DNA of 64,000 bases, from positions 354,508-418,507 of the forward strand of contig JBAYFZ010000001.1 in NCBI GenBank assembly GCA_041666915.1, in the 5' to 3' direction. The position numbers and the translations under genes were made by a program. Positions within the stretch are counted from its first letter, which is position 1; each line of letters starts with the position of its first letter. This stretch comes from Minisyncoccota bacterium (GTDB lineage Bacteria > Patescibacteriota > Minisyncoccia > Phycocordibacterales > PALSA-1337). This document shows, one piece after another, positions 364-60,290 of this stretch. The notes beneath the pieces are model-generated. The model did not search any database. It worked only from the letters and a program-made list of their open reading frames with translations, and was not told where the DNA came from.

Positions 364-384
364 TTTATTATTATAACTCACTGT

Positions 385-484
385 GTCATTCCCGCGAAGG
401 CGGGAATCCAGGATTATTACGGATAAATAGTTATCGCTAACCCAATGGTAACACACTGGATTCCCGCCTTCGCGGGAATGACAA
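385..484. repeat. MITE/REP-like palindromic element copy 1 (terminal inverted repeats GTCATTCCCGCGAAGGCGGGAATCCAGGAT ... ATCCTGGATTCCCGCCTTCGCGGGAATGAC)
   Basis: Near-perfect inverted termini flank a ~40 bp AT-rich core, in the intergenic gap between proS and rseP. Confidence 0.8.
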
Positions 485-10023: not shown

Positions 10024-10160
10024 GTTGTCATTCCCGCTTTTTATGTCATTCCCGCGAAGGCGGGAATCCAGGATAATACCACAATAAATAGCATGTATTT
10101 AAAAACCATTTAACAAACTTTCCATTCGTAATAATCCTGGATTCCCGCCTTCGCGGGAAT
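10024..10160. repeat. MITE/REP-like palindromic element copy 3, inserted between def and fmt
   Basis: Both inverted termini are present, plus an extra partial left terminus (GTCATTCCCGCTTTTTATGTCATTCCCGCGAAGG). The right terminus abuts or overlaps the annotated fmt start. Confidence 0.8.
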
Positions 10161-11076
10161 GACAAAACAAAAAACTATGCCCACCCCCTTCTCCTTCTTC
10201 GGATCCTCACGTTTCTCGGTAATAGTTCTCGAGCAACTTTTTCGTAAAGGATTGATCCCTTCATACATCATAACAACGGTAGACAAACCAATTGGACGAA
10301 AACAAATCATAACAGCCAACGTGGTCAAACAATGGGCCAATGAAAAAAATATTCCTGTTTATGACCCAGCCAAATTGAATCAGGAATTCGTAGATCAATT
10401 GATTAAATTAAATAAAAATACGGACGGTTCAGAAAAATGTCCAGTTTTCCTAGTCGCTTCTTACGGCAAAATAATTCCAAAGGTAATAATAGACTTACCT
10501 TCAAGAAAAACCCTCAACATCCACCCTTCTCTATTACCAAAATATCGTGGACCTTCCCCATTACCTTCGGCAATGTTGGATGACGATAAAAAGACTGGTG
10601 TGACTATCATGAGAATAGATGAGGAGATGGACCACGGCCCAATCGTAGCAAAGAAAGAAGTTGTGGTAACCGAATGGCCTATTTATGAAAAATACGAAGC
10701 AATGATGGCGGACGAAGGAGCAAAATTATTTGCAGAAATATTACCAAAATGGATAGCGGGAGAAATCAAAGAGCAAGAACAGGATCATTCCATTGCTACA
10801 TATACAAAAAAGATTACAAAAGAAGATGGGTTAATTGACCTCTCCGGTGACGCTTATACCAATTTTAGAAAAATCCAAGCCTACCACGAATGGCCAAAAG
10901 CGTATTTCTTCATGAAGCATACCGCCCGTTCGACCGGCTCAGGGCAAGACAAAGAAATCCGTGTAAAAATAACTGAGGCAAGTTTCAGTGATGGTCAATT
11001 GAAAATTCAGAAAGTAATTCCTGAGGGCGCAAAAGAGATGGCATACGAAGACTTCCTTCGTGGTTACAAAAATTGA
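10159..11076 (+). CDS. fmt: methionyl-tRNA formyltransferase
   Basis: Formyltransferase core with the HPSLLPKYRG motif and a C-terminal Fmt domain. The true start may be an internal Met because the first codons lie inside the repeat. Confidence 0.85.
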   Translation: MTKQKTMPTPFSFFGSSRFSVIVLEQLFRKGLIPSYIITTVDKPIGRKQIITANVVKQWANEKNIPVYDPAKLNQEFVDQLIKLNKNTDGSEKCPVFLVASYGKIIPKVIIDLPSRKTLNIHPSLLPKYRGPSPLPSAMLDDDKKTGVTIMRIDEEMDHGPIVAKKEVVVTEWPIYEKYEAMMADEGAKLFAEILPKWIAGEIKEQEQDHSIATYTKKITKEDGLIDLSGDAYTNFRKIQAYHEWPKAYFFMKHTARSTGSGQDKEIRVKITEASFSDGQLKIQKVIPEGAKEMAYEDFLRGYKN

Positions 11077-12068: not shown

Positions 12069-12388
12069 TCCGGAGTAGCTCAGCGGTAGAGCGATCGCCT
12101 GTAGAGTATGCAGCTTTCTGTCGAAAGGCAGATCGAATAACGAGGTGAATTCGGGGAAACCCCAAACGTAATTGTGGGCAATCCCGAGCCGAGCCCGCCA
12201 AATGGTGGGAAGGTGTAGAGACTATCCAATTTTGGAGTAGCTTGAATTATTTATATAATAATTCTTGCGAAGCCCCTCGTCCCTAAACTGTGGCATTGCC
12301 ACGATATGGGAATGATATAGTCCGTACCATTAGTAATAATGGATTAAACGTAAGCGATTGGTCACAGGTTCGAATCCTGTCTCCGGAG
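12069..12388 (+). tRNA. tRNA-Asn(GUU) interrupted in the anticodon loop (between positions 35 and 36) by a group I intron; mature tRNA 72 nt
   Basis: The 5' exon 12069-12102 is TCCGGAGTAGCTCAGCGGTAGAGCGATCGCCTGT. The 3' exon 12351-12388 is TAAGCGATTGGTCACAGGTTCGAATCCTGTCTCCGGAG. Joined, they give a perfect cloverleaf with acceptor TCCGGAG/CTCCGGA, anticodon stem ATCGC/GCGAT, loop CUGUUAA and discriminator G73. Confidence 0.85.
12103..12350 (+). ncRNA. group I self-splicing intron (248 nt) within tRNA-Asn
   Basis: Core elements are recognisable: P-like AATTGTGGGCAA, Q-like AATCCCGAGC, R-like GTAGAGACTATCC, S-like GATATAGTCC. A P9 hairpin CCATTAGTAATAATGG precedes the terminal omega-G at 12350. 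The 5' exon ends in U, which can pair in P1 (CUGU/GCAG). Confidence 0.75.
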
Positions 12389-13933
12389 CAAAGCTGGATG
12401 AAGGGGCGTAATAACGCCCTTTTGTCCTTTCTGGACAAGGGTTTTCTGTGGTTCGAAAAGCTTTTCTGAGTCAATCTTCTCTTGAACACGTTTAGCAATC
12501 ATCTCCACCGATTTCTCCAATGTATAGCTCACTTTTTCGTTGTTAATGACTAAGTTCGAAAAAATCTTCTTCAGAATCATTCGACGTTCCATTGGATTTC
12601 TTTTTTCATAAATCTCTCGGGACCTTCGAGCTATGTCAATAATATCAATGTATCGTTCGAAATATTTAACCTCATCATTCTTGAGTCTCGCAATTTGTGA
12701 TTGGATTCCTTCCTGTTCAGACATTATCTCCGCTTGTTTTGACTCCCAGCGGTCCCTAGTAATCTTCTCGTCTAAGTGATCATCATAAAGTATGTCCAAT
12801 CGCTTCTGTAGGCTGTTATAGCGTTCCTGAAGAGCTTTTAACATATTCTCCTTGTATTCAGATTCGCCTTTATGATCATCACGGATCTTTTGATATAGTT
12901 GCTCAGCTTCGACAGGTGTAATTGCCTCAAATATTCTAAATACAGACAAGATCGAGTTCTCAATTTCTTCTTCTCGAGTCGAATACCTCTGTGAGCAAGT
13001 CTTGTAGTGCTTACATGAGTAATAAATATGACCTTTCTGGACCTCCCCGTAGATTGTACTGCCACATTCTCCACAATGAATCATCTTAGAGAATATATGC
13101 TGACGCCTCTTATAATGTGGCGCACCGTCCCGGACCAAAGCTGTTTGCACTGAGTCAAACAGTTCCTTAGATATTAACGGTTCCTGTTTTCCACCTCTAT
13201 ACAAGACTCCCTTCCAAATCATATCTCCATAGAAAAAAGGATCTTTTAGTATCTCATGTAAACAGGACTTACCAAGCTGACAACCATTTCTTGCTCGTAA
13301 TCCCTCTGAGTATAGCTTGTCACTTAGGGCCATCAATGAATAATTGCCTGTAGCATAATATTCAAAAGCCTTTTTCATGAACGGTCCCCGGACCTCATCT
13401 ATGACGTGTATTTTGTGACCCTTGTCGCCAATAGTCTTATATCCGAGTGGTGGCGTACATGGGAGCCAACCCTGAGCGATTTTCTCCTTCTGACCTTTCT
13501 TCACCTCTTCTGAGAGATTGTTGGTGTAGAAGCGTGCAATAGCTATCTTCATATCCCAGACCAGATTCTCGTGAGCACGGGTATTCTTGTTAACTACTGA
13601 ATTCTCCTTCACAAAGTGCACTTCACGAGCTTCATCTTCCTGAATCCAGTCATTAACTATCGAAGCATCTTTCAAATTACGTGTTAGACGATCTATTTTC
13701 TCACAGAGGATAATATTCACATCATTCTTAACTGTATATTCCAACATCTCGTTAAACACAAGGCGTATTTGCTTGCCACTGGCTGATTCACTGATCCTAA
13801 AAACTTTTGATATTGTAAGGTTCCTTTTACCTGCATATTCCTTCAAGAGCTTTTCTTGTGCATCAAGAGAGTAACCGGTTTCCTCCTGTTCTCGAGATGA
13901 TACACGTGCATATATGACGCAGTCGGTTTTCAT
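12362..13933 (-). CDS. large serine recombinase (resolvase/invertase catalytic domain + recombinase domain + zinc ribbon)
   Basis: N-terminal VIYARVSSREQ catalytic-serine motif and DRLTRN; central recombinase domain; Cys-rich segment CGECGSTIYG...YYSCKHYKTC. The 3' end of the ORF overlaps the 3' exon of tRNA-Asn. Confidence 0.85.
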   Translation of the reverse strand: MKTDCVIYARVSSREQEETGYSLDAQEKLLKEYAGKRNLTISKVFRISESASGKQIRLVFNEMLEYTVKNDVNIILCEKIDRLTRNLKDASIVNDWIQEDEAREVHFVKENSVVNKNTRAHENLVWDMKIAIARFYTNNLSEEVKKGQKEKIAQGWLPCTPPLGYKTIGDKGHKIHVIDEVRGPFMKKAFEYYATGNYSLMALSDKLYSEGLRARNGCQLGKSCLHEILKDPFFYGDMIWKGVLYRGGKQEPLISKELFDSVQTALVRDGAPHYKRRQHIFSKMIHCGECGSTIYGEVQKGHIYYSCKHYKTCSQRYSTREEEIENSILSVFRIFEAITPVEAEQLYQKIRDDHKGESEYKENMLKALQERYNSLQKRLDILYDDHLDEKITRDRWESKQAEIMSEQEGIQSQIARLKNDEVKYFERYIDIIDIARRSREIYEKRNPMERRMILKKIFSNLVINNEKVSYTLEKSVEMIAKRVQEKIDSEKLFEPQKTLVQKGQKGVITPLHPALLRRQDSNL

Positions 13934-14521: not shown

Positions 14522-15021
14522 GATCCCGGGGTTTTGTTTATCCTCATAATCAAACTCGGCGAGTAGATTAAATAACGACGCCAATCCGATAACGTCATTT
14601 TCTTGATTATTTAATTTTGAATTATTTTCGACCATTTGTGTATGATGGTGTGAACGATTTACTCACCATTGACGACCATCATACTAAAACAGCCATTTAC
14701 GTTTAAAATAAAAATTAAATATGGCTTAACTAAGCCAATTATACAAAATAATCCAATACACACTTATTCTTACTCCTATAATATTTTATATTCTTTTCCG
14801 TTGATAAGTAGAACAGGTTTTGATACTATAATCACATATAAGAATACTGACGCCAGAAAGGCCCAGCTGGCGCGCGCCTTCATTAGAAGGAAGAGCGAAT
14901 GGAGGAACTGCCGCCCTCCCAGATCTATCTAAAAAACTTCCTTCAATAAAGGAAGTTTTTTAGTTTAAAACCATTACTTTCTGTTCGACCAATTGGGTAC
15001 AAACTTTAATACAACTAGCAG

Positions 15022-15094
15022 TACCCTCGGAAGGACTCGAACCTTCAACCTTGCCGATAGAAGCGACTTGCTCTGTCCATTGAGCTACGAAGGC
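15022..15094 (-). tRNA. tRNA-Arg(UCU)
   Basis: The reverse complement GCCTTCGTAGCTCAATGGACAGAGCAAGTCGCTTCTATCGGCAAGGTTGAAGGTTCGAGTCCTTCCGAGGGTA folds as a 73-nt cloverleaf with anticodon loop CUUCUAU and T-arm GAAGG-TTCGAGT-CCTTC. Confidence 0.8.
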
Positions 15095-15234
15095 ATAACA
15101 CCTAACAAAAAACCGCAAGAAAGCAACAACCAGTTGGGTTGTCAGCTATTGCGGTTTATCTTCTTCTCTTAATGGAATTCACTATGTTTATTATACTAAC
15201 AGATAAGTATCCAATCCTCAAGAAAGATGCGCCC

Positions 15235-15438
15235 TCAGATTAAAGTTAATCTATACCATATTTTTGCTTCAATTTGAGCAACTCTAGTATCGCTAATATT
15301 AAATTTCTTACCCGTAACCTTTTGAGTATGTCTAATCCCGTCAATTACTCCATACCTATACTCAAAGATGGCTGTATGTCTATCATTTAAGTTTAAAAGT
15401 GGTTTATTATTACAATATTTCTGTATCTGCTTTTTCAT
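15235..15438 (-). CDS. small sigma-70 region-4-like HTH protein
   Basis: 67 aa; C-terminal ISDTRVAQIEAKIWYRL resembles sigma-70 region 4.2 (xSxxRVRQIEAKALRKL). Its start overlaps the recombinase stop. Confidence 0.5.
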   Translation of the reverse strand: MKKQIQKYCNNKPLLNLNDRHTAIFEYRYGVIDGIRHTQKVTGKKFNISDTRVAQIEAKIWYRLTLI

Positions 15439-16796
15439 TATATTTTTATATTTTTAACAAAAGGCATAATATTTTCATAAATATTTTCTGGTTTAATAAT
15501 ATACTCAAGATATTGATTGTCATCTGAAAATAAAACAAAATTGCACTGATTAAAAACATTTGTCGGTATAAGGAAAACATCATCTATCAATTCTTTTTTA
15601 CCTAATGTAATACTAACAGCAAAAACTTTATCGTAACTCCTCTTTTCTTCTTCAATGACAAAGATCGTAGACTTCTTACCAGAATTGACTTCATATGAAT
15701 TAACACTATAAGCAAGAGGAAACTTCTTTATTTTAGATTCAGCATCATCTACACTAAAACCCTCTTTCACAAGGAGTTCTCTCATCTCTCTCTCAACAAA
15801 ATTCTGTGCTTTACGTATCATATAAATACCTTTTTTCCATCTCGAAGGTGTGGACCAAAAGAGACGATCTTGAGCCATCCAAAATATTTTCTCATCAATA
15901 ACAGCCGGAAACGCTTTCGGAGCAATGGCCCACTCATTTCGTGGATTTTTTACCTTCTTCTGCTTTAATTTACCTGATGTCTTATTGTAAAGTCTTGTAC
16001 CAGTATAAACTTCATTCCCTAAAATATGACTAACTTTTCCTTTACTCCATACCCCACCATTCGCAGAAGGAATACTCTTCTCATTTAAAATATCGACAAT
16101 ATCACTTGTGGTAAGCCACTTATTTACAAACATATCGAAAATATCTTTCACTACATCTGTAGTCTCGTCATTAAGGGGTGCAAATGTAACGCGTTGATTA
16201 CTAATTTGTTTATGTTCACCTTTTTTAAGTTCACGTATAGGTTTTTTATTCTCATCCAGAAGAAGCCTTACCATACCATAGCAGGCTGTACCACCAGCAG
16301 AATAACCATCTTTTGAAATCTTCATGCAACCGTACCAAACTTTACCACTCAATTGTCGCGAGTATTGTGCGGCCATCCAACGTTCCATTGGCGTAATGAT
16401 ACTATCAGTTATCTCTTGCTCCTCTCTTGGAAATGGCTTACTTGTGTATAGAACTTTCTTACCATGTTGTTCGCAAAGATGTTCGTAATAAGCTGCTTCG
16501 TTTTGGTTTTGGAATCTACCCCAACGAGAAACATCATATACGAGTATGTAATCGAAGTGGGGTGCGTTTGGATTAAGCACCCAATCTTTCATAAGACTTT
16601 GAAAACCTGGACGGTTTGCCGTTAAACCACTTACACCCTCATCAGCAAGATGATCAATAATTTCTCCACCGAATTTTGTAGCAAAACGTGCATGATGATC
16701 TTTTTGGATAGGAACAGAATTTTCTTGTTTATCTTCAGCAGAATGACGGTTATACGTAATTCCTACCCATATTCGTTTTGATTGTAAAAATTGCAT
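15438..16796 (-). CDS. large serine recombinase (second copy, divergent sequence)
   Basis: N-terminal resolvase-like domain (VGITYNRHSAEDKQ, DVSRWGR) and central recombinase domain (GKVWYGC...ERWMAAQYSRQLS). Confidence 0.75.
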   Translation of the reverse strand: MQFLQSKRIWVGITYNRHSAEDKQENSVPIQKDHHARFATKFGGEIIDHLADEGVSGLTANRPGFQSLMKDWVLNPNAPHFDYILVYDVSRWGRFQNQNEAAYYEHLCEQHGKKVLYTSKPFPREEQEITDSIITPMERWMAAQYSRQLSGKVWYGCMKISKDGYSAGGTACYGMVRLLLDENKKPIRELKKGEHKQISNQRVTFAPLNDETTDVVKDIFDMFVNKWLTTSDIVDILNEKSIPSANGGVWSKGKVSHILGNEVYTGTRLYNKTSGKLKQKKVKNPRNEWAIAPKAFPAVIDEKIFWMAQDRLFWSTPSRWKKGIYMIRKAQNFVEREMRELLVKEGFSVDDAESKIKKFPLAYSVNSYEVNSGKKSTIFVIEEEKRSYDKVFAVSITLGKKELIDDVFLIPTNVFNQCNFVLFSDDNQYLEYIIKPENIYENIMPFVKNIKI

Positions 16797-16797
16797 A

Positions 16798-17655
16798 CTA
16801 GAGAATCTTCTTAAGTTCCGTGATTAAATTCTTTTCTTTTTCATCAAAAGGGATACCATTTTTCCTTTTCTTTTTTACTTCTTCTATAAGTTGTAATATG
16901 TGAAGAGAAAAATCCGATTGAATAGTGTCTCGATCAAGTTCAGCTACCGTTGCATCAGGGTCTGATAAAAATCTATAGATTTCGGCTTCATTGGCAGCGG
17001 CACGGGCAAATATCTTCTGTATCTTGCGAAAATCTTTAGCATTTTTAATAATACGATGCTTAACCTTTTCAAAGAGTATTTTAATTATATCCGGCGTCTC
17101 AAAGTTTCTTATCTTTCTCAATTTTGGCCACAATCTCACGAACTCCATCCGGTACACTTCCTTAAGATCATACTTAACCATAAGCTCAAGATAATCTAAT
17201 TTTTGTTCTCTCAATTGAAGAGACGACGCAATAGTTGTCCTCGAGAGATTCAAAAGTTTTGAAAGTTCTTCATTACTCTTAAGTCCTAGCATTATCTTTG
17301 CTCTATGAAGGGAGTTTGATTTTTCCATAGGTTTCCACCCTTTTCGGTTATTCTGTTTTTCATATCGTCGTATTTCTAACTCTCCATCATCAAGATCTGG
17401 ATAAATCTGACACATAGCTTTTTCTACACCCAGACCTTTTAAACAAAGATAACGACGATGCCCATCAATTATTAAGTAACGATTATCGTCTTTCTGGGTA
17501 ACCATTATCGGTTCTTGAAGTCCAAATTGCTTAAGAGAACTAGTAAGCTTTTCTTGTTCTGATGGATTACCATATTCTTTTCGTGGCTGATTACTATCTA
17601 ATTCAATTTCTGAAATTAATACTTCCTTAAAGATTGTTGTATGTTTCCCTATCAT
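16798..17655 (-). CDS. ParB/Srx-fold nuclease-like domain protein
   Basis: N-terminal ParB box (LIIDGHRRYLCL, GxRR) with a C-terminal helical region. Confidence 0.7.
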   Translation of the reverse strand: MIGKHTTIFKEVLISEIELDSNQPRKEYGNPSEQEKLTSSLKQFGLQEPIMVTQKDDNRYLIIDGHRRYLCLKGLGVEKAMCQIYPDLDDGELEIRRYEKQNNRKGWKPMEKSNSLHRAKIMLGLKSNEELSKLLNLSRTTIASSLQLREQKLDYLELMVKYDLKEVYRMEFVRLWPKLRKIRNFETPDIIKILFEKVKHRIIKNAKDFRKIQKIFARAAANEAEIYRFLSDPDATVAELDRDTIQSDFSLHILQLIEEVKKKRKNGIPFDEKEKNLITELKKIL

Positions 17656-23552: not shown

Positions 23553-24144
23553 TTTAAATCATTTTACAAACACAAAAAGCCCACCACGGGTAGAGGCCGA
23601 AGCCCCTCATATCAGTTTCCCGATATGGCAGATTAAGGCGACCCCATGATGGGTTCTTTGTCCTTAATCTGACTAACTTTTCACCATGCCAGAAATCACT
23701 TATTTCTGGTTTAGGCTACTTATACATATTCAGTTGTATGTTTAGGATACCACTCTATTACGTCCATGCCAATATTCAGCTCTTTAACAATCGTGTAATG
23801 CATGTCTCCCTTCACCACATAATAGTGTATAATAAAGCTATGAAATACGCTTATCTATCCATAATAATTCTTTTAATAATCAGTGGTTTTTATTGGTTTC
23901 AGTTGCGACCAAGCCAAATTAAAAAACATTGTTTTTATACCAGTGCAACATTAAAAGAAAATTTATCGCCTCATGCCGATTTAACTTCTCCAGATAGCTT
24001 TAGTCTCGCCAGCGTAGAAGCACAATCCAATTACCATTCTTGTTTAACCTCGAATGGACTTTAAGGTTGAACTCGAAGAAAAAATGTGATGTAAGTCACT
24101 ATCCACAGTTTTTTTATTTCTATTTGGTTGATATAATGTTGCTC

Positions 24145-54770: not shown

Positions 54771-54886
54771 AATTACTAATTTTTAATTTCTTGCGTTGTC
54801 ATTCCCGCGAAGGCGGGAATCCAGGATATTACCAAAAAATTCTGTTAGTTGCCTTCATGGATTCCCGCCTTCGCGGGAATGACACA
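54771..54886. repeat. MITE/REP-like palindromic element copy 4, between the hydrogenase small and large subunit genes
   Basis: Both inverted termini plus the shared flank AATTACTAATTTTTAATTTCTTGCGTT. Confidence 0.8.
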
Positions 54887-57463: not shown

Positions 57464-59221
57464 GTGAAGAAATCCCACGACAGTGTTTTTACTATTGGCA
57501 TCGGCGGAGCGGCTGGTGACGGTATCCATGAATCAGGCATCACACTAGGTGCTATCTTGGCCGAACTTGGTTACGAATCATATTTATCATACACTTACCC
57601 TTCACTTATCCGTGGAGGGCACAATTTTGCCCGTCTTTCATTCAGTAAGGAAAAAATATACTCTGACCACGAAGCTTTGGATGTTCTCATCGCTCTCAAC
57701 GAAGAAAGCATCGTGCTTCATCGCAAAGAAATGGCAGACAATTCGGTTGTTTTGGCTGATTCTTTTGAAAAAGATGATTTGGACATACTCAAAGACAATG
57801 CCGTAGTTATACCGATGGACATTACAGTCAAAGAGATGAATGTTTCTCCTATTACCAGAAACTCAATGGCTTTGGGAGCGCTTTGTTACCTACTAGACTT
57901 GGATTTCAAGCTCATGGAAAAAGTCTTAGGTGATGTCTTCAAAAACAAAAAACCAGAAATAAACATCAAACTTGCTGATATAGGTTACGAATTACTCAAA
58001 AGCAAAAATTTCCGACATTCCAAAAAGATTCACCCTAGTGAAGGTAAAAAAGAATTCATAGATGGTAATAGTGCCCTAGCAAAAGGCCTTCTAACAGCTG
58101 GTTTAGATTTCTACATTGGTTACCCAATGACACCAGCTACAAGTATCTTGCAATATTTAGCTACACACCAACACGACAATATTGGACACAATCAAAAGAT
58201 GCGTGTCATTCAACCAGAGAGTGAGCTCTCGGTTATCAATATGGCACTAGGCATGTCTTACGCCGGCAAACGCGTAGCAGTTGGTTCTGCTACTGGAGGT
58301 TTCGCCTTGATGCAAGAAGCTTTTAGTTTCGCTGGTATAGCCGAATTACCTTTGGTAGTAGCTGTCTCCCAAAGACAAGGACCTGCCACAGGACTTCCTA
58401 CTTATTCTAGTCAAACAGATTTGCGATTTGCCATACATGCTGGACATGGAGAATTCCCGAGAATAGTCATCGCCCCCGGAGATCCAGAAGAATCCTTCTA
58501 CCTTGGTGCACAAGCCTTGAATCTGGCTTGGGAATACCAACTACCAGTCATAGTCCTTATGGATAAAATCATTTCCGAACATTCTGCTACGAGTCTTTTG
58601 AAAGCTGAGAATATTAAAATAGAAAAAGGAAACGTCGCAAAAAATACAGATGAAAAATATGGTAGATATGAAATAACAAAAGACGGTATATCTCCTATGG
58701 CTTTTCCTGGCACAGCCAATACTACAGTAAAAGTTACTAGCTATGAACATGACCATGCAGGTATCACCGTAGATGAACCAGAGTTAGCCGAAAAAATGTT
58801 AGATAAAAGGTTTGCTAAATCAGAAACCTTAAAAAAATCTTTAAATCACCACGAGACCGTCAAAGTCTACGGCGATCACTCCAGTGACAATATAGTTGTT
58901 TTCTGGGGTTCAACCAAAGGTCCCGCTTTGGAGTCAGCCAGATATTTGAAAAAACCAGTCAAGTTTGTACAAATTGTTTGGTTAGAACCTTTTGATGTTA
59001 AAAAAGTAAAACAAGAATTATCTGGAGCCAAAAAGATTATTGACGTTGAATGTAATCATGATGGTCAATTATCTGCTTTAATCCGCGAAAAAACTGGCAT
59101 AGAAGTCACAGACAAGATTCTGAAATACGATTCAAGACCTTTTGAACCAGTTGAGTTGGCAGAAAAGATCAATTCATTATGTCATTCCCGCGAAGGCGGG
59201 AATCCAGGATGTAACCAATAA
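57464..59221 (+). CDS. 2-oxoacid:ferredoxin oxidoreductase alpha subunit (gamma-alpha fusion type)
   Basis: N-terminal gamma-like TIGIGGAAGDGI domain then an alpha domain. The last ~15 codons (LCHSREGGNPGCNQ) are supplied by MITE copy 5. Confidence 0.8.
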   Translation: MKKSHDSVFTIGIGGAAGDGIHESGITLGAILAELGYESYLSYTYPSLIRGGHNFARLSFSKEKIYSDHEALDVLIALNEESIVLHRKEMADNSVVLADSFEKDDLDILKDNAVVIPMDITVKEMNVSPITRNSMALGALCYLLDLDFKLMEKVLGDVFKNKKPEINIKLADIGYELLKSKNFRHSKKIHPSEGKKEFIDGNSALAKGLLTAGLDFYIGYPMTPATSILQYLATHQHDNIGHNQKMRVIQPESELSVINMALGMSYAGKRVAVGSATGGFALMQEAFSFAGIAELPLVVAVSQRQGPATGLPTYSSQTDLRFAIHAGHGEFPRIVIAPGDPEESFYLGAQALNLAWEYQLPVIVLMDKIISEHSATSLLKAENIKIEKGNVAKNTDEKYGRYEITKDGISPMAFPGTANTTVKVTSYEHDHAGITVDEPELAEKMLDKRFAKSETLKKSLNHHETVKVYGDHSSDNIVVFWGSTKGPALESARYLKKPVKFVQIVWLEPFDVKKVKQELSGAKKIIDVECNHDGQLSALIREKTGIEVTDKILKYDSRPFEPVELAEKINSLCHSREGGNPGCNQ

Positions 59222-59272
59222 AATTTATCGCCAGTATTCATGGATTCCCGCCTTCGCGGGAATGACACAAAA
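59176..59272. repeat. MITE/REP-like palindromic element copy 5
   Basis: Intact termini; the core CCAGGATGTAACCAATAAAATTTATCGCCAGTATTCATGGATTCC is nearly identical to copy 6. Confidence 0.85.
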
Positions 59273-60109: not shown

Positions 60110-60290
60110 AATGACTGAATTCCTTAAGATATATAAGTCTTCATCAGAAATTAGTCTTTGTGTCATTCCCGCGAAGGCGGGAATCCAGGATGTAACCAAT
60201 AAAATTTGTCGCCAGTATTCATGGATTCCCGCCTTCGCGGGAATGACAACACAAGAAATTAAAAATTAGTAATTAGAAATTCTCCTAACT
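60110..60290. repeat. MITE/REP-like palindromic element copy 6 with extended AT-rich flanks
   Basis: Intact termini at 60160-60250. The flanks (AATTTTTAATTCCTAATTTC... / ...AAATTAAAAATTAGTAATTAGAAATT) mirror the flanks of copies 2 and 4. Confidence 0.8.

What the first reader, a model, noticed from the sequence alone, without database searches (positions are those of the whole stretch)
12069..12388. tRNA-Asn(GUU) split by a 248-nt group I intron with recognisable P/Q/R/S core
The two exons reconstitute a textbook 72-nt tRNA-Asn. The intervening 248 nt carries the conserved group I elements in the canonical order: P-like AATTGTGGGCAA, Q-like AATCCCGAGC, R-like GTAGAGACTA, S-like GATATAGTCC. 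It also has a P9 hairpin and a terminal G, and the 5' splice site follows a U that can form a P1 U-G pair. Group I introns in bacterial tRNAs are best known for Leu(UAA), fMet, Ile and Arg(CCU). An Asn(GUU) host inserted between anticodon positions 35 and 36 would be unusual. Here it sits immediately next to a serine-recombinase gene.
Basis: partly seen in the sequence, partly recalled or inferred. Interest (0 to 1): 0.75.

Follow-up and report, generated by a model that had tools for sequence, protein, structure and literature searches.

The report
Self-splicing intron in tRNA-Asn gene
The asparagine tRNA gene of this tiny-genome (Patescibacteria) bacterium is interrupted in its anticodon by a 248-base self-splicing group I intron; the call is correct, but this intron family was described and shown to self-splice in 2025-2026, so it is a known feature.

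Summary
Exons 12069-12102 and 12351-12388 join into a canonical 72-nt tRNA-Asn(GUU). The 248 nt between them (12103-12350) is a group I intron inserted between anticodon positions 35 and 36.

- **Detection:** intron-aware ARAGORN finds exactly this gene. Rfam Intron_gpI scores 45.9 bits (E = 1.7e-8 for the whole window), just under its cut-off of 50.
- **Structure:** a helix model tested on 36 homologous introns from other species has 93% of cells paired, against 72% in shuffles and 37-45% when the partners are slid. P2, P3, P4, P5, P6a, P7.1, P7.2, P8, P9.0 and P9 carry compensatory changes. The P7.1/P7.2 insert marks subgroup IA.
- **One correction:** The true P is AAUUCGGGG (12148-12156).
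- **Host:** a Candidatus Paceibacterota (Patescibacteria) bacterium.
- **Novelty:** tRNA-Asn introns at 35/36 in this phylum were published, with in vitro self-splicing, by Nakagawa et al. (mSystems 2026). Williams' 2020 tFind preprint is credited there with the class. One capped scan found 112 further species with the same interruption, so this is not new.
- **Side observation:** the adjacent large serine recombinase ORF ends inside the tRNA's 3' exon, and this arrangement recurs in many species.

The parts
12069..12102 (+). tRNA-Asn(GUU) 5' exon: acceptor 5' strand, D arm, anticodon stem 5' strand, and loop nucleotides C32 U33 G34 U35. It ends in U-1.
   Evidence: ARAGORN with introns allowed. 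The same exon, ending in CTGT, is found in 112 other species.
12103..12350 (+). Group I intron, 248 nt, IA-type, with no ORF. Window coordinate = 12102 + intron position.
   Evidence: Rfam RF00028 at 45.9 bits, E = 1.7e-8. Comparative structure on 36 homologues. The MFE fold reproduces most helices, z = -3.65. 58% identical over aligned columns to the intron shown to self-splice in vitro.
12351..12388 (+). tRNA-Asn 3' exon: U36 A37 A38, anticodon stem 3' strand, variable loop, T arm, acceptor 3' strand and discriminator G. CCA is not encoded.
12099..12113 (+). P1: exon CUGU (12099-12102) paired with the internal guide GCAG (12110-12113), including the U12102.G12110 wobble at the 5' splice site. 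The loop is 7 nt; relatives carry the endonuclease ORF at this position.
   Evidence: All four pairs are invariant in 36 of 36 sequences. Long relatives have an insert of about 320 nt here.
12117..12132 (+). P2 hairpin: 6 bp with a GAAA tetraloop at 12123-12126.
   Evidence: All 6 pairs show changes on both sides; 95% of cells paired.
12141..12145 (+). P3 5' strand, CGAGG. It pairs with 12275-12279 and forms a pseudoknot with P7.
   Evidence: 4 of 5 pairs show compensatory changes; 98% of cells paired. The Rfam alignment had placed P3' at CUUG (12241-12244), which the comparison does not support.
12148..12187 (+). P4-P5 domain. The true 'P' element AAUUCGGGG (12148-12156) contains P4 5' (12151-12156). 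P5 is 12160-12162 with 12176-12178. P4 3' ('Q') is 12182-12187.
   Evidence: P4 has 4 of 6 pairs with compensatory changes, and P5 has 2 of 3.
12189..12213 (+). P6 (12189-12190 with 12212-12213) and P6a (12194-12199 with 12204-12209).
   Evidence: All 6 P6a pairs show compensatory changes.
12218..12224 (+). P7 5' strand ('R'), G-A(bulge)-GACUA. It pairs with 12318-12323 ('S'). This is the guanosine-binding helix.
   Evidence: All six pairs are invariant in 36 sequences. That fits a catalytic core but says nothing by covariation.
12225..12268 (+). P7.1 (12225-12228 with 12233-12236) and P7.2 (12240-12251 with 12257-12268). These peripheral hairpins lie between P7 and P3', which is the hallmark of subgroup IA.
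   Evidence: P7.1 has 3 of 4 pairs with compensatory changes, and P7.2 has 10 of 10.
12275..12279 (+). P3 3' strand, CCUCG.
12280..12311 (+). P8 (12280-12283 with 12308-12311) with the inner hairpin P8a (12290-12294 with 12298-12302). Its internal loop CCUAAA / UAUGG resembles the 11-nt GAAA-tetraloop receptor.
   Evidence: P8 has 3 of 4 pairs with compensatory changes; P8a is lineage-specific and only about 50% paired in the alignment. The receptor resemblance is read from the sequence and was not statistically linked to an L2 of GAAA.
12318..12323 (+). P7 3' strand ('S'), within GAUAUAGUCC.
12324..12350 (+). P9.0 (12324-12325 with 12348-12349), P9 hairpin (12327-12332 with 12337-12342, GUAA loop) and omega-G (12350).
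   Evidence: Both P9.0 pairs covary and are 100% paired, which fixes the 3' splice site. P9 has 5 of 6 pairs with compensatory changes. G precedes TAA in all 115 parsed genes.
12404..12441 (+). Two consecutive terminator-like hairpins downstream of the tRNA: GGGGCG-uaauaa-CGCCC followed by UUUUGUCC, and 12419-12441 followed by UUUUCUGUGG.
   Evidence: L124 and L125 have a hairpin plus T-run at the same position.
12362..13933 (-). Large serine recombinase, 523 aa, convergent with the tRNA. Its ORF ends at a TGA inside the 3' exon, a 27-nt overlap. It belongs to the locus context, not to the intron.
   Evidence: Pfam Resolvase, Recombinase and Zn_ribbon_recom. The same arrangement is seen in other species.

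Best explanation
This is the chromosomal tRNA-Asn(GUU) gene of a Candidatus Paceibacterota (Patescibacteria) bacterium. It is interrupted between anticodon nucleotides U35 and U36 by a 248-nt group I intron of IA type that carries no endonuclease gene.

Proposed mechanism:
1. The gene is transcribed as a precursor of about 320 nt.
2. The intron folds into the P3-P9 core. The 5' splice site is presented in P1 (exon CUGU paired with guide GCAG, with a U.G wobble).
3. An exogenous guanosine bound in P7 attacks after U12102.
4. Omega-G (12350), positioned by P9.0, then occupies the same site, and the freed 3'-OH of U35 attacks the 3' splice site.
5. This joins ...CCUGU to UAAGCG... and yields a 72-nt tRNA-Asn, which must then receive CCA.

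Shown here: the boundaries, the tRNA fold, homology to a widespread intron family, and a conserved, covarying group I secondary structure.

Inferred: that this copy self-splices. This rests on homology to a family member shown to self-splice in vitro, and on the intact core.

The intron is most simply a vertically inherited, endonuclease-less descendant of an HNH-carrying mobile intron. A relative has a 574-nt version at the orthologous gene.
For: - **Boundaries and tRNA:** ARAGORN with introns allowed gives tRNA-Asn(gtt) with a 248-nt intron at 12103-12350.
- **Intron identity:** Rfam Intron_gpI matches the full model at 45.9 bits, E = 1.4e-10 locally and 1.7e-8 for the window.
- **Host:** the neighbouring Fmt is identical to a protein labelled Candidatus Paceibacterota. 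The window lies on a 450,810-nt contig from an ENA metagenome assembly.
- **Distribution:** 112 of them parse as tRNA-Asn with CTGT|intron...G|TAA, mostly Patescibacteria.
- **Structure:** on a MAFFT alignment of 36 IA-type homologues, my helix model has 93.1% of cells paired, against 72.0% in shuffles (0 of 500 reach it) and 37-45% with slid partners. 49 of 69 pairs show changes on both sides.
- **Independent fold:** the MFE fold recovers P2, P3, P5, P6, P6a, P7.1, P7.2 and P8, z = -3.65.
- **Orthologous genes:** behind the conserved PriA-Def-Fmt-HPF block, L124 has a 260-nt intron and L125 a 574-nt intron. The extra ~320 nt in L125/L126 sit in the P1 loop and encode a 107-aa ORF with a weak HNH match.
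- **Literature:** PMC13011429 reports this intron class in Patescibacteria, classifies it as IA, finds HNH endonucleases in four copies, and shows precise in vitro self-splicing that an omega-G to C change abolishes.
- **Relation to the tested intron:** the window's intron is 58% identical over aligned columns to that intron and shares all core blocks.
Against: - The Rfam score is below the curated gathering threshold (45.9 against 50).
- P1 has only 4 base pairs here, because exon position -5 is C opposite C. No convincing P10 can be drawn (sequence).
- No splicing or expression data exist for this organism.
- Only 64 kb of the genome is visible. I cannot show that this is the only tRNA-Asn gene, and therefore that it must be functional.
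- No recognisable sigma-70-type promoter lies upstream on the + strand. Promoters of this phylum may not fit that consensus.
Confidence: 0.93

Rival explanations
1. The gene is a tRNA-Thr(CGU) with the intron two bases further 5', at 33/34. The exons would be ...CCU and CGUAAGCG..., the kind of alternative ARAGORN and tFind often choose for this family.
For: ARAGORN calls most homologues tRNA-Thr(tgt) with the intron at 33/34. PMC13011429 reports the same miscalls. In the window the shifted reading would also leave a U before the 5' splice site.
Against: - The shifted intron would end in A (...UUAAA) rather than G.
- The P1 U.G wobble (U12102.G12110) is invariant in 36 of 36 sequences. The covarying P9.0 pairs place omega-G at 12350.
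- ARAGORN itself calls Asn for this copy.
- The body has U1-A72 and discriminator G73. From general knowledge these match bacterial tRNA-Asn, not tRNA-Thr (G1-C72, A73).
- Sequencing of spliced product in PMC13011429 confirmed the 35/36 junction for a homologue.
Confidence: 0.02
2. The locus is a dead gene: a tRNA-Asn inactivated by a decayed intron that can no longer splice, with another tRNA-Asn gene elsewhere doing the work.
For: - The score is below Rfam's gathering cut-off.
- P1 is short and there is no endonuclease ORF.
- The rest of the genome could not be inspected.
Against: - Every core helix is intact in this copy, and every invariant core nucleotide of the family is present.
- The tRNA exons are perfect.
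- Two relatives keep an intron-containing gene at the orthologous site.
Confidence: 0.04
3. The two tRNA halves are brought together by an integrated mobile element. In this reading the 3' exon belongs to the serine-recombinase island and the 'intron' is junction sequence.
For: The recombinase ORF overlaps the 3' exon by 27 nt. Such recombinases abut this tRNA in many species.
Against: - The intervening 248 nt is a complete group I ribozyme with covariation support.
- L124 has the same split gene with no recombinase next to it.
- L124 and L125 share about 75 nt beyond the tRNA end before they diverge. The element junction there is therefore downstream of the tRNA, not inside it.
- No displaced copy of the 3' exon exists in the window.
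Confidence: 0.01

Closest known systems
Patescibacterial tRNA-Asn(GUU)/tRNA-Asp(GUC) group I introns at position 35/36 (Nakagawa et al., mSystems 2026, PMC13011429; class 'Asn.4Ug' of Williams' tFind)
   Same: - Same host phylum, tRNA, insertion site (35/36), U-1 and omega-G.
- Same IA-type architecture and the same length range.
- Same conserved blocks: GCAGC guide, GGUGAAUU, AAUC..GAGCC, GAAGGU..AGAGACUA, GAAGCGCC, GAUGAUAUAGUCC.
- 58-61% identity over aligned columns to two introns listed in that paper's Table S3.
   Different: - This copy comes from a metagenome contig, whereas that paper analysed complete genomes only.
- It has both P7.1 and P7.2, whereas the experimentally tested Saccharimonadia intron lacks the P7.1 hairpin.
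- It has an extended P8 with a receptor-like internal loop.
- These are variations within the family.
Classical bacterial tRNA group I introns: tRNA-Leu(UAA) of cyanobacteria and plastids, tRNA-fMet, Azoarcus tRNA-Ile(CAU), Agrobacterium tRNA-Arg(CCU)
   Same: - A small self-splicing group I intron in the anticodon loop, with no ORF.
- P1 is built from anticodon-loop nucleotides.
- The J6/7-P7 block GAAGGUGUAGAGACUA is, from my memory of the Azoarcus ribozyme sequence, the same as in that ribozyme. This was not tested here.
   Different: - Those introns sit at 33/34, 34/35 or 36/37, and tRNA introns overall are mostly subgroup IC, with no P7.1/P7.2.
- This one is at 35/36 and is IA-type.
Subgroup IA group I introns of phages (T4 td and nrdB, Twort orf142-I2)
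   Same: From general knowledge of group I subgroups: extra P7.1/P7.2 helices lie between P7 and P3', the core is compact, and GNRA tetraloops occupy the peripheral loops.
   Different: Those introns interrupt protein-coding genes and often carry endonuclease ORFs in other loops. No direct sequence comparison was made here.

Membership tests
Group I intron (Rfam RF00028) | Score at or above the curated gathering threshold | tested here: not met
   45.9 bits against a cut-off of 50, with E = 1.7e-8 for the window. [quoted passage not shown]
Group I intron (Rfam RF00028) | Conserved core of P3-P9 in canonical order, with the P3/P7 pseudoknot | tested here: met
   The helix model has 93.1% of cells paired on 36 homologues. 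P3, P4, P5, P6a, P8, P9.0 and P9 carry compensatory changes, and P7 is invariant.
Group I intron (Rfam RF00028) | 5' splice site after a U that forms a U.G wobble in P1 with an internal guide sequence | tested here: met
   U12102.G12110 plus three Watson-Crick pairs, invariant in 36 of 36 sequences.
Group I intron (Rfam RF00028) | Intron ends in guanosine (omega-G) | tested here: met
   G12350. G precedes the 3' exon in all 115 parsed genes. The covarying P9.0 lies directly 5' of it.
Group I intron (Rfam RF00028) | Guanosine-dependent self-splicing | not testable with these tools
   Shown in vitro for a homologue from GCA_016700035.1 in PMC13011429. The window's intron is 58% identical to it over aligned columns.
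Subgroup IA | Additional helices P7.1 and P7.2 between the P7 5' strand and the P3 3' strand | tested here: met
   P7.1 (12225-12236) and P7.2 (12240-12268) have compensatory changes in 3 of 4 and 10 of 10 pairs. The subgroup-specific covariance models used in PMC13011429 were not available, so IA1, IA2 and IA3 were not resolved.
tRNA-Asn(GUU) | Cloverleaf with a GUU anticodon after exon joining | tested here: met
   ARAGORN run on the in-silico spliced sequence and on the genomic sequence with introns allowed.
tRNA-Asn(GUU) | Body resembles tRNA-Asn rather than the alternative tRNA-Thr reading | tested here: met
   59 of 72 and 61 of 72 positions are identical to two tRNA-Asn genes of PMC13011429 Table S3. 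U1-A72 and G73 are read from the sequence. No isotype-specific model was run.
Patescibacterial 35/36 tRNA intron family (PMC13011429) | Insertion between nucleotides 35 and 36 of tRNA-Asn or tRNA-Asp in a Patescibacteria genome | tested here: met
   Position. Host label Candidatus Paceibacterota.
Patescibacterial 35/36 tRNA intron family (PMC13011429) | Sequence homology to listed members | tested here: met
   It aligns end to end with two listed introns and with 35 scan-derived homologues.
Large serine recombinase (neighbouring gene) | N-terminal resolvase catalytic domain, recombinase domain and zinc ribbon | tested here: met
   PF00239 at E = 1e-22, PF07508 at 2.1e-10 and PF13408 at 6.7e-10.

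The most novel reading that the evidence does not exclude
The intron itself is known. The least-explored aspect is its context. The site just downstream of tRNA-Asn appears to be a preferred landing site for elements carrying a large serine recombinase across Patescibacteria.

The recombinase ORF has no stop codon of its own. It runs antisense through the tRNA terminator and ends inside the tRNA's 3' exon. If the crossover site lies inside the 3' end of the recombinase gene, integration and excision would swap the enzyme's C-terminal tail. Convergent tRNA transcription could also interfere with recombinase expression.

I found no description of this in the one literature search I made for it.
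Probability: 0.4. Interest if true: 0.45.

Novelty: already known. Interest (0 to 1): 0.15.

Why it matters
This result mainly confirms published work.
- **Annotation:** default tRNA finders and Rfam's gathering threshold both miss this gene. Genomes of this phylum therefore look as if they lack tRNA-Asn, which distorts completeness estimates. PMC13011429 makes exactly this point.
- **Extent:** the scan here shows the feature is far more widespread than the 15 cases in complete genomes.
- **Diversity:** at least two different intron architectures occupy the same 35/36 site.
- **Structure:** the comparative model (P3' placement, P7.1/P7.2, P9.0) could help build a better covariance model for the family.
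- **Lead to follow:** the recurrent serine-recombinase neighbour is the only lead that might go beyond what is published.

Tried and rejected
- **Default scans:** ARAGORN without introns and Rfam at gathering threshold both missed the feature. They were replaced by intron-aware ARAGORN and an E-value search.
- **First literature search:** 'group I intron' plus 'tRNA-Asn' returned only organelle papers. A broader query found the relevant papers.
- **Rfam's helix assignments:** its alignment placed P1 in the D arm and P3' at CUUG (12241-12244). I rejected both after the comparative analysis.
- **First structure string:** it wrote P3 and P7 with one bracket type and mis-nested the pseudoknot. I corrected this before counting.
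- **L2 to P8 docking:** I tested whether the 11-nt receptor-like motif in P8 co-occurs with an L2 of GAAA. With a strict motif definition the association is not significant (Fisher p = 0.30), so the docking is only a suggestion.
- **Displaced tRNA 3' fragment:** I searched the window for one as a sign of integration inside the tRNA and found none.
- **Family-specific covariance model:** not built, because the covariation count already answered the question.
- **Recombinase association:** one literature search found nothing relevant.

Full report
**1. The observation**

- ARAGORN in its default mode finds only a tRNA-Arg(tct) at 15021-15094 in the window.
- Rfam at gathering thresholds finds only that tRNA and a LOOT RNA.
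- When introns are allowed, ARAGORN returns tRNA-Asn(gtt) with a 248-nt intron between cctgt and taagc. The exons are 12069-12102 and 12351-12388, and the intron is 12103-12350.
- The in-silico spliced 72-mer is a standard cloverleaf with anticodon loop CUGUUAA.
- With a short D loop, sequence position 34 corresponds to standard position 35, so the insertion is at 35/36 as claimed.
- Rfam Intron_gpI matches 12078-12343 across the whole model at 45.9 bits. E = 1.4e-10 in a local search and 1.7e-8 for the whole window.
- This is well beyond chance, but below the curated cut-off of 50, which is why the default scan missed it.

**2. The organism**

The window is identical to part of a 450,810-nt contig from an ENA metagenome assembly. 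The neighbouring methionyl-tRNA formyltransferase carries the source label Candidatus Paceibacterota bacterium. Its relatives are Paceibacterota and Parcubacteria proteins. The host is therefore a member of the Patescibacteria (the candidate phyla radiation).

**3. What is already published**

Nakagawa et al. (mSystems 2026, PMC13011429; preprint 10.1101/2025.07.03.662931) report the following.
- 15 of the 22 intron-containing tRNA genes found in 95 complete genomes are tRNA-Asn.
- 19 of the 28 introns at 35/36 among 4,934 complete bacterial genomes are patescibacterial.
- 25 of those 28 belong to subgroup IA.
- Four tRNA-Asn introns carry HNH endonuclease genes.
- Two such introns splice precisely at 35/36 in vitro, and an omega-G to C change abolishes exon ligation.

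Williams' 2020 preprint (10.1101/2020.01.27.920355) expanded intron-split bacterial tRNA classes from 4 to 21. The class 'Asn.4Ug' is attributed to it in PMC13011429.

**4. Relatives**

I scanned species-representative genomes for the S element, a gap, omega-G, TAA and the T arm.
- Parsing the exons shows 112 further tRNA-Asn genes with CTGT|intron...G|TAA, besides the window and two orthologous loci (L124, L125). All begin with TC and end with discriminator G.
- Most are Patescibacteria (Saccharibacteria, Paceibacterota, Parcubacteria and others).
- A few are assemblies labelled Omnitrophota, Gammaproteobacteria, Planctomycetales or Oligoflexia.
- ARAGORN miscalls most of them as tRNA-Thr(tgt) at 33/34, as the paper describes.
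- Intron lengths run from 180 to 723 nt.
- In the long ones, about 320 extra nucleotides sit a few bases into the intron, in the P1 loop.

Two relatives were found through Fmt homologues. Both keep the PriA-Def-Fmt-HPF block, followed by an intron-containing tRNA-Asn.
- L124 has a 260-nt intron.
- L125 and L126 have a 574-nt intron.
- The insert in L126 encodes a 107-aa ORF with a weak HNH match (E = 3.7e-4, just under Pfam's cut-off).

The window's copy is thus an endonuclease-less member of a family with mobile relatives, sitting at a conserved chromosomal position.

**5. Structure**

From a 59-sequence alignment I derived a helix model. I then tested it on a MAFFT alignment of 36 introns of the same architecture.

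| Measure | Result |
|---|---|
| Cells forming standard pairs | 93.1% |
| Same, in shuffles | 72.0% (0 of 500 shuffles reach the observed value) |
| Same, with partners slid by 1-3 columns | 37-45% |
| Pairs with changes on both sides | 49 of 69 |

- P2, P3, P4, P5, P6a, P7.1, P7.2, P8, P9.0 and P9 all carry compensatory changes.
- P1 and P7 never vary.
- The comparison corrects two assignments.
The true P is AAUUCGGGG (12148-12156).
  - Rfam's alignment placed P3' at CUUG (12241-12244). The covarying partner of CGAGG (12141-12145) is CCUCG (12275-12279).
- Two hairpins between P7 and P3' (P7.1 and P7.2) give the IA architecture, in line with the paper's classification.
- P9.0 (GU at 12324-12325 with AC at 12348-12349) covaries and is paired in all sequences. 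This fixes omega-G at 12350.
- L2 (GAAA) and L9 (GUAA) are GNRA tetraloops, as in 35 of 36 sequences each.
- P8 contains CCUAAA/UAUGG, which resembles the 11-nt tetraloop receptor. A link to an L2 of GAAA was not significant (p = 0.30), so that docking is only a suggestion.
- Thermodynamic folding of the window sequence alone recovers P2, P3, P5, P6, P6a, P7.1, P7.2 and P8, z = -3.65.

**6. Relation to the experimentally tested intron**

Table S3 of PMC13011429 gives the sequences.
- The window's intron aligns end to end with the validated Saccharimonadia intron (GCA_016700035.1), at 58% identity over aligned columns.
- It aligns with a Paceibacteria intron (GCA_016699245.1) at 61%.
- It shares every core block with both.
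- The exons match those tRNA-Asn genes at 59 of 72 and 61 of 72 positions.

**7. Mechanism and rivals**

The best explanation is ordinary group I self-splicing that yields tRNA-Asn. Boundaries, fold and homology are shown here. Catalysis by this particular copy is inferred.

- **tRNA-Thr(CGU) at 33/34:** excluded. That intron would end in A, the invariant U.G wobble and the covarying P9.0 point to the 35/36 boundaries, and the body has Asn-like U1-A72 and G73.
- **Decayed pseudogene:** unlikely, because all core helices and invariant nucleotides are intact and relatives keep the split gene at the same site. I could not inspect the rest of the genome.
- **Mobile-element junction artefact:** excluded, as described in the next section.

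**8. The recombinase neighbour**

The 523-aa ORF at 12362-13933 (- strand) is a large serine recombinase.
- It has no stop codon before the host flank. It reads antisense through the two terminator-like hairpins (12404-12441; one search reports one, the other is read from the sequence).
- It ends at a TGA inside the tRNA's 3' exon.
- Homologous recombinases (24-51% identity) lie convergent with the tRNA-Asn 3' end, abutting or overlapping it. By my reading, this holds for about 14-19 of the scan-derived loci, depending on how close a gene must lie to count.
- Only 65 of the loci with a parsed tRNA have at least 1.5 kb of downstream sequence.
- L125 has one in the same reading frame relative to the tRNA. 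L124 has none.
- L124 and L125 share about 75 nt beyond the tRNA end, including a terminator hairpin, and then diverge. The element junction there is therefore downstream of the tRNA rather than in it.
- No displaced 3' exon copy is present in the window.
- A second serine recombinase and a ParB-like gene follow a tRNA-Arg(tct) a few kb further on.
- I could not test whether the association depends on the intron, because all scanned loci were chosen for having it.

**9. Verdict**

The finding is real and correctly interpreted apart from one mislabelled element. It is an instance of a published, experimentally validated and widespread feature of Patescibacteria. Interest is low. The recombinase context is the only part that may merit further work.

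Noticed in passing
window 12362-13933 (-); also L125 8087-9736, L031, L028, L101, L092, L039, L056, L048, L005, L114 and others: A large serine recombinase gene converges on tRNA-Asn. It lacks its own stop codon and terminates inside the tRNA's 3' exon. The same arrangement recurs, by my reading of the distances, in about 14-19 of the scanned loci, with recombinases only 24-51% identical. Only 65 loci have at least 1.5 kb of downstream sequence. L124 and L125 share about 75 nt beyond the tRNA, which puts the junction downstream of the tRNA terminator.
   Followed up: partly
window 15021-17655 (-): tRNA-Arg(tct) at 15021-15094 is followed on the same strand by a 67-aa ORF, a second serine recombinase (15438-16796; Resolvase and Recombinase domains, no zinc ribbon hit) and a ParB-N protein (16798-17655). 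This may be a second integrative element, or one composite island.
   Followed up: no
window 23592-23717 (-): LOOT RNA (Rfam RF03000) at 78.6 bits, E = 4e-13, full length, well above its gathering score of 46.4.
   Followed up: no
window 384-484, 1656-1695, 10038-10171, 54784-54840, 59177-59222, 60157-60258: A family of short (about 30-50 nt) repeats at 90-100% identity, present in both orientations. One pair flanks the def-fmt intergenic region. They look like dispersed palindromic intergenic repeats.
   Followed up: no
L013, L020, L027, L034, L043, L046, L048, L050, L061, L071, L096, L098, L108, L120 (alignment A1): A second, clearly different intron architecture occupies the same 35/36 site of tRNA-Asn in other Patescibacteria. 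Its blocks are GGGAUAACGGUGAA...ACCGUGGGAAC...GUAGAGACUAGAUACCGA, with no P7.1 or P7.2. At least two intron lineages therefore use this site.
   Followed up: no
L125/L126 7468-8113: The orthologous tRNA-Asn of a relative (Fmt 65% identical) carries a 574-nt version of the intron. About 320 extra nucleotides in the P1 loop encode a 107-aa ORF with a weak HNH match (E = 3.7e-4). The window's copy looks like the endonuclease-less state of a once-mobile intron.
   Followed up: partly
L124 8762-12903: In a relative without the recombinase, the region downstream of tRNA-Asn holds HigB toxin, an M78 peptidase, a Beta_protein, a phage P4 cII-like protein and an AlwI-type restriction enzyme. In L125 the recombinase is followed by XhoI-type and Eco57I-type restriction-modification genes. 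The locus is a variable, defence-rich hotspot.
   Followed up: no
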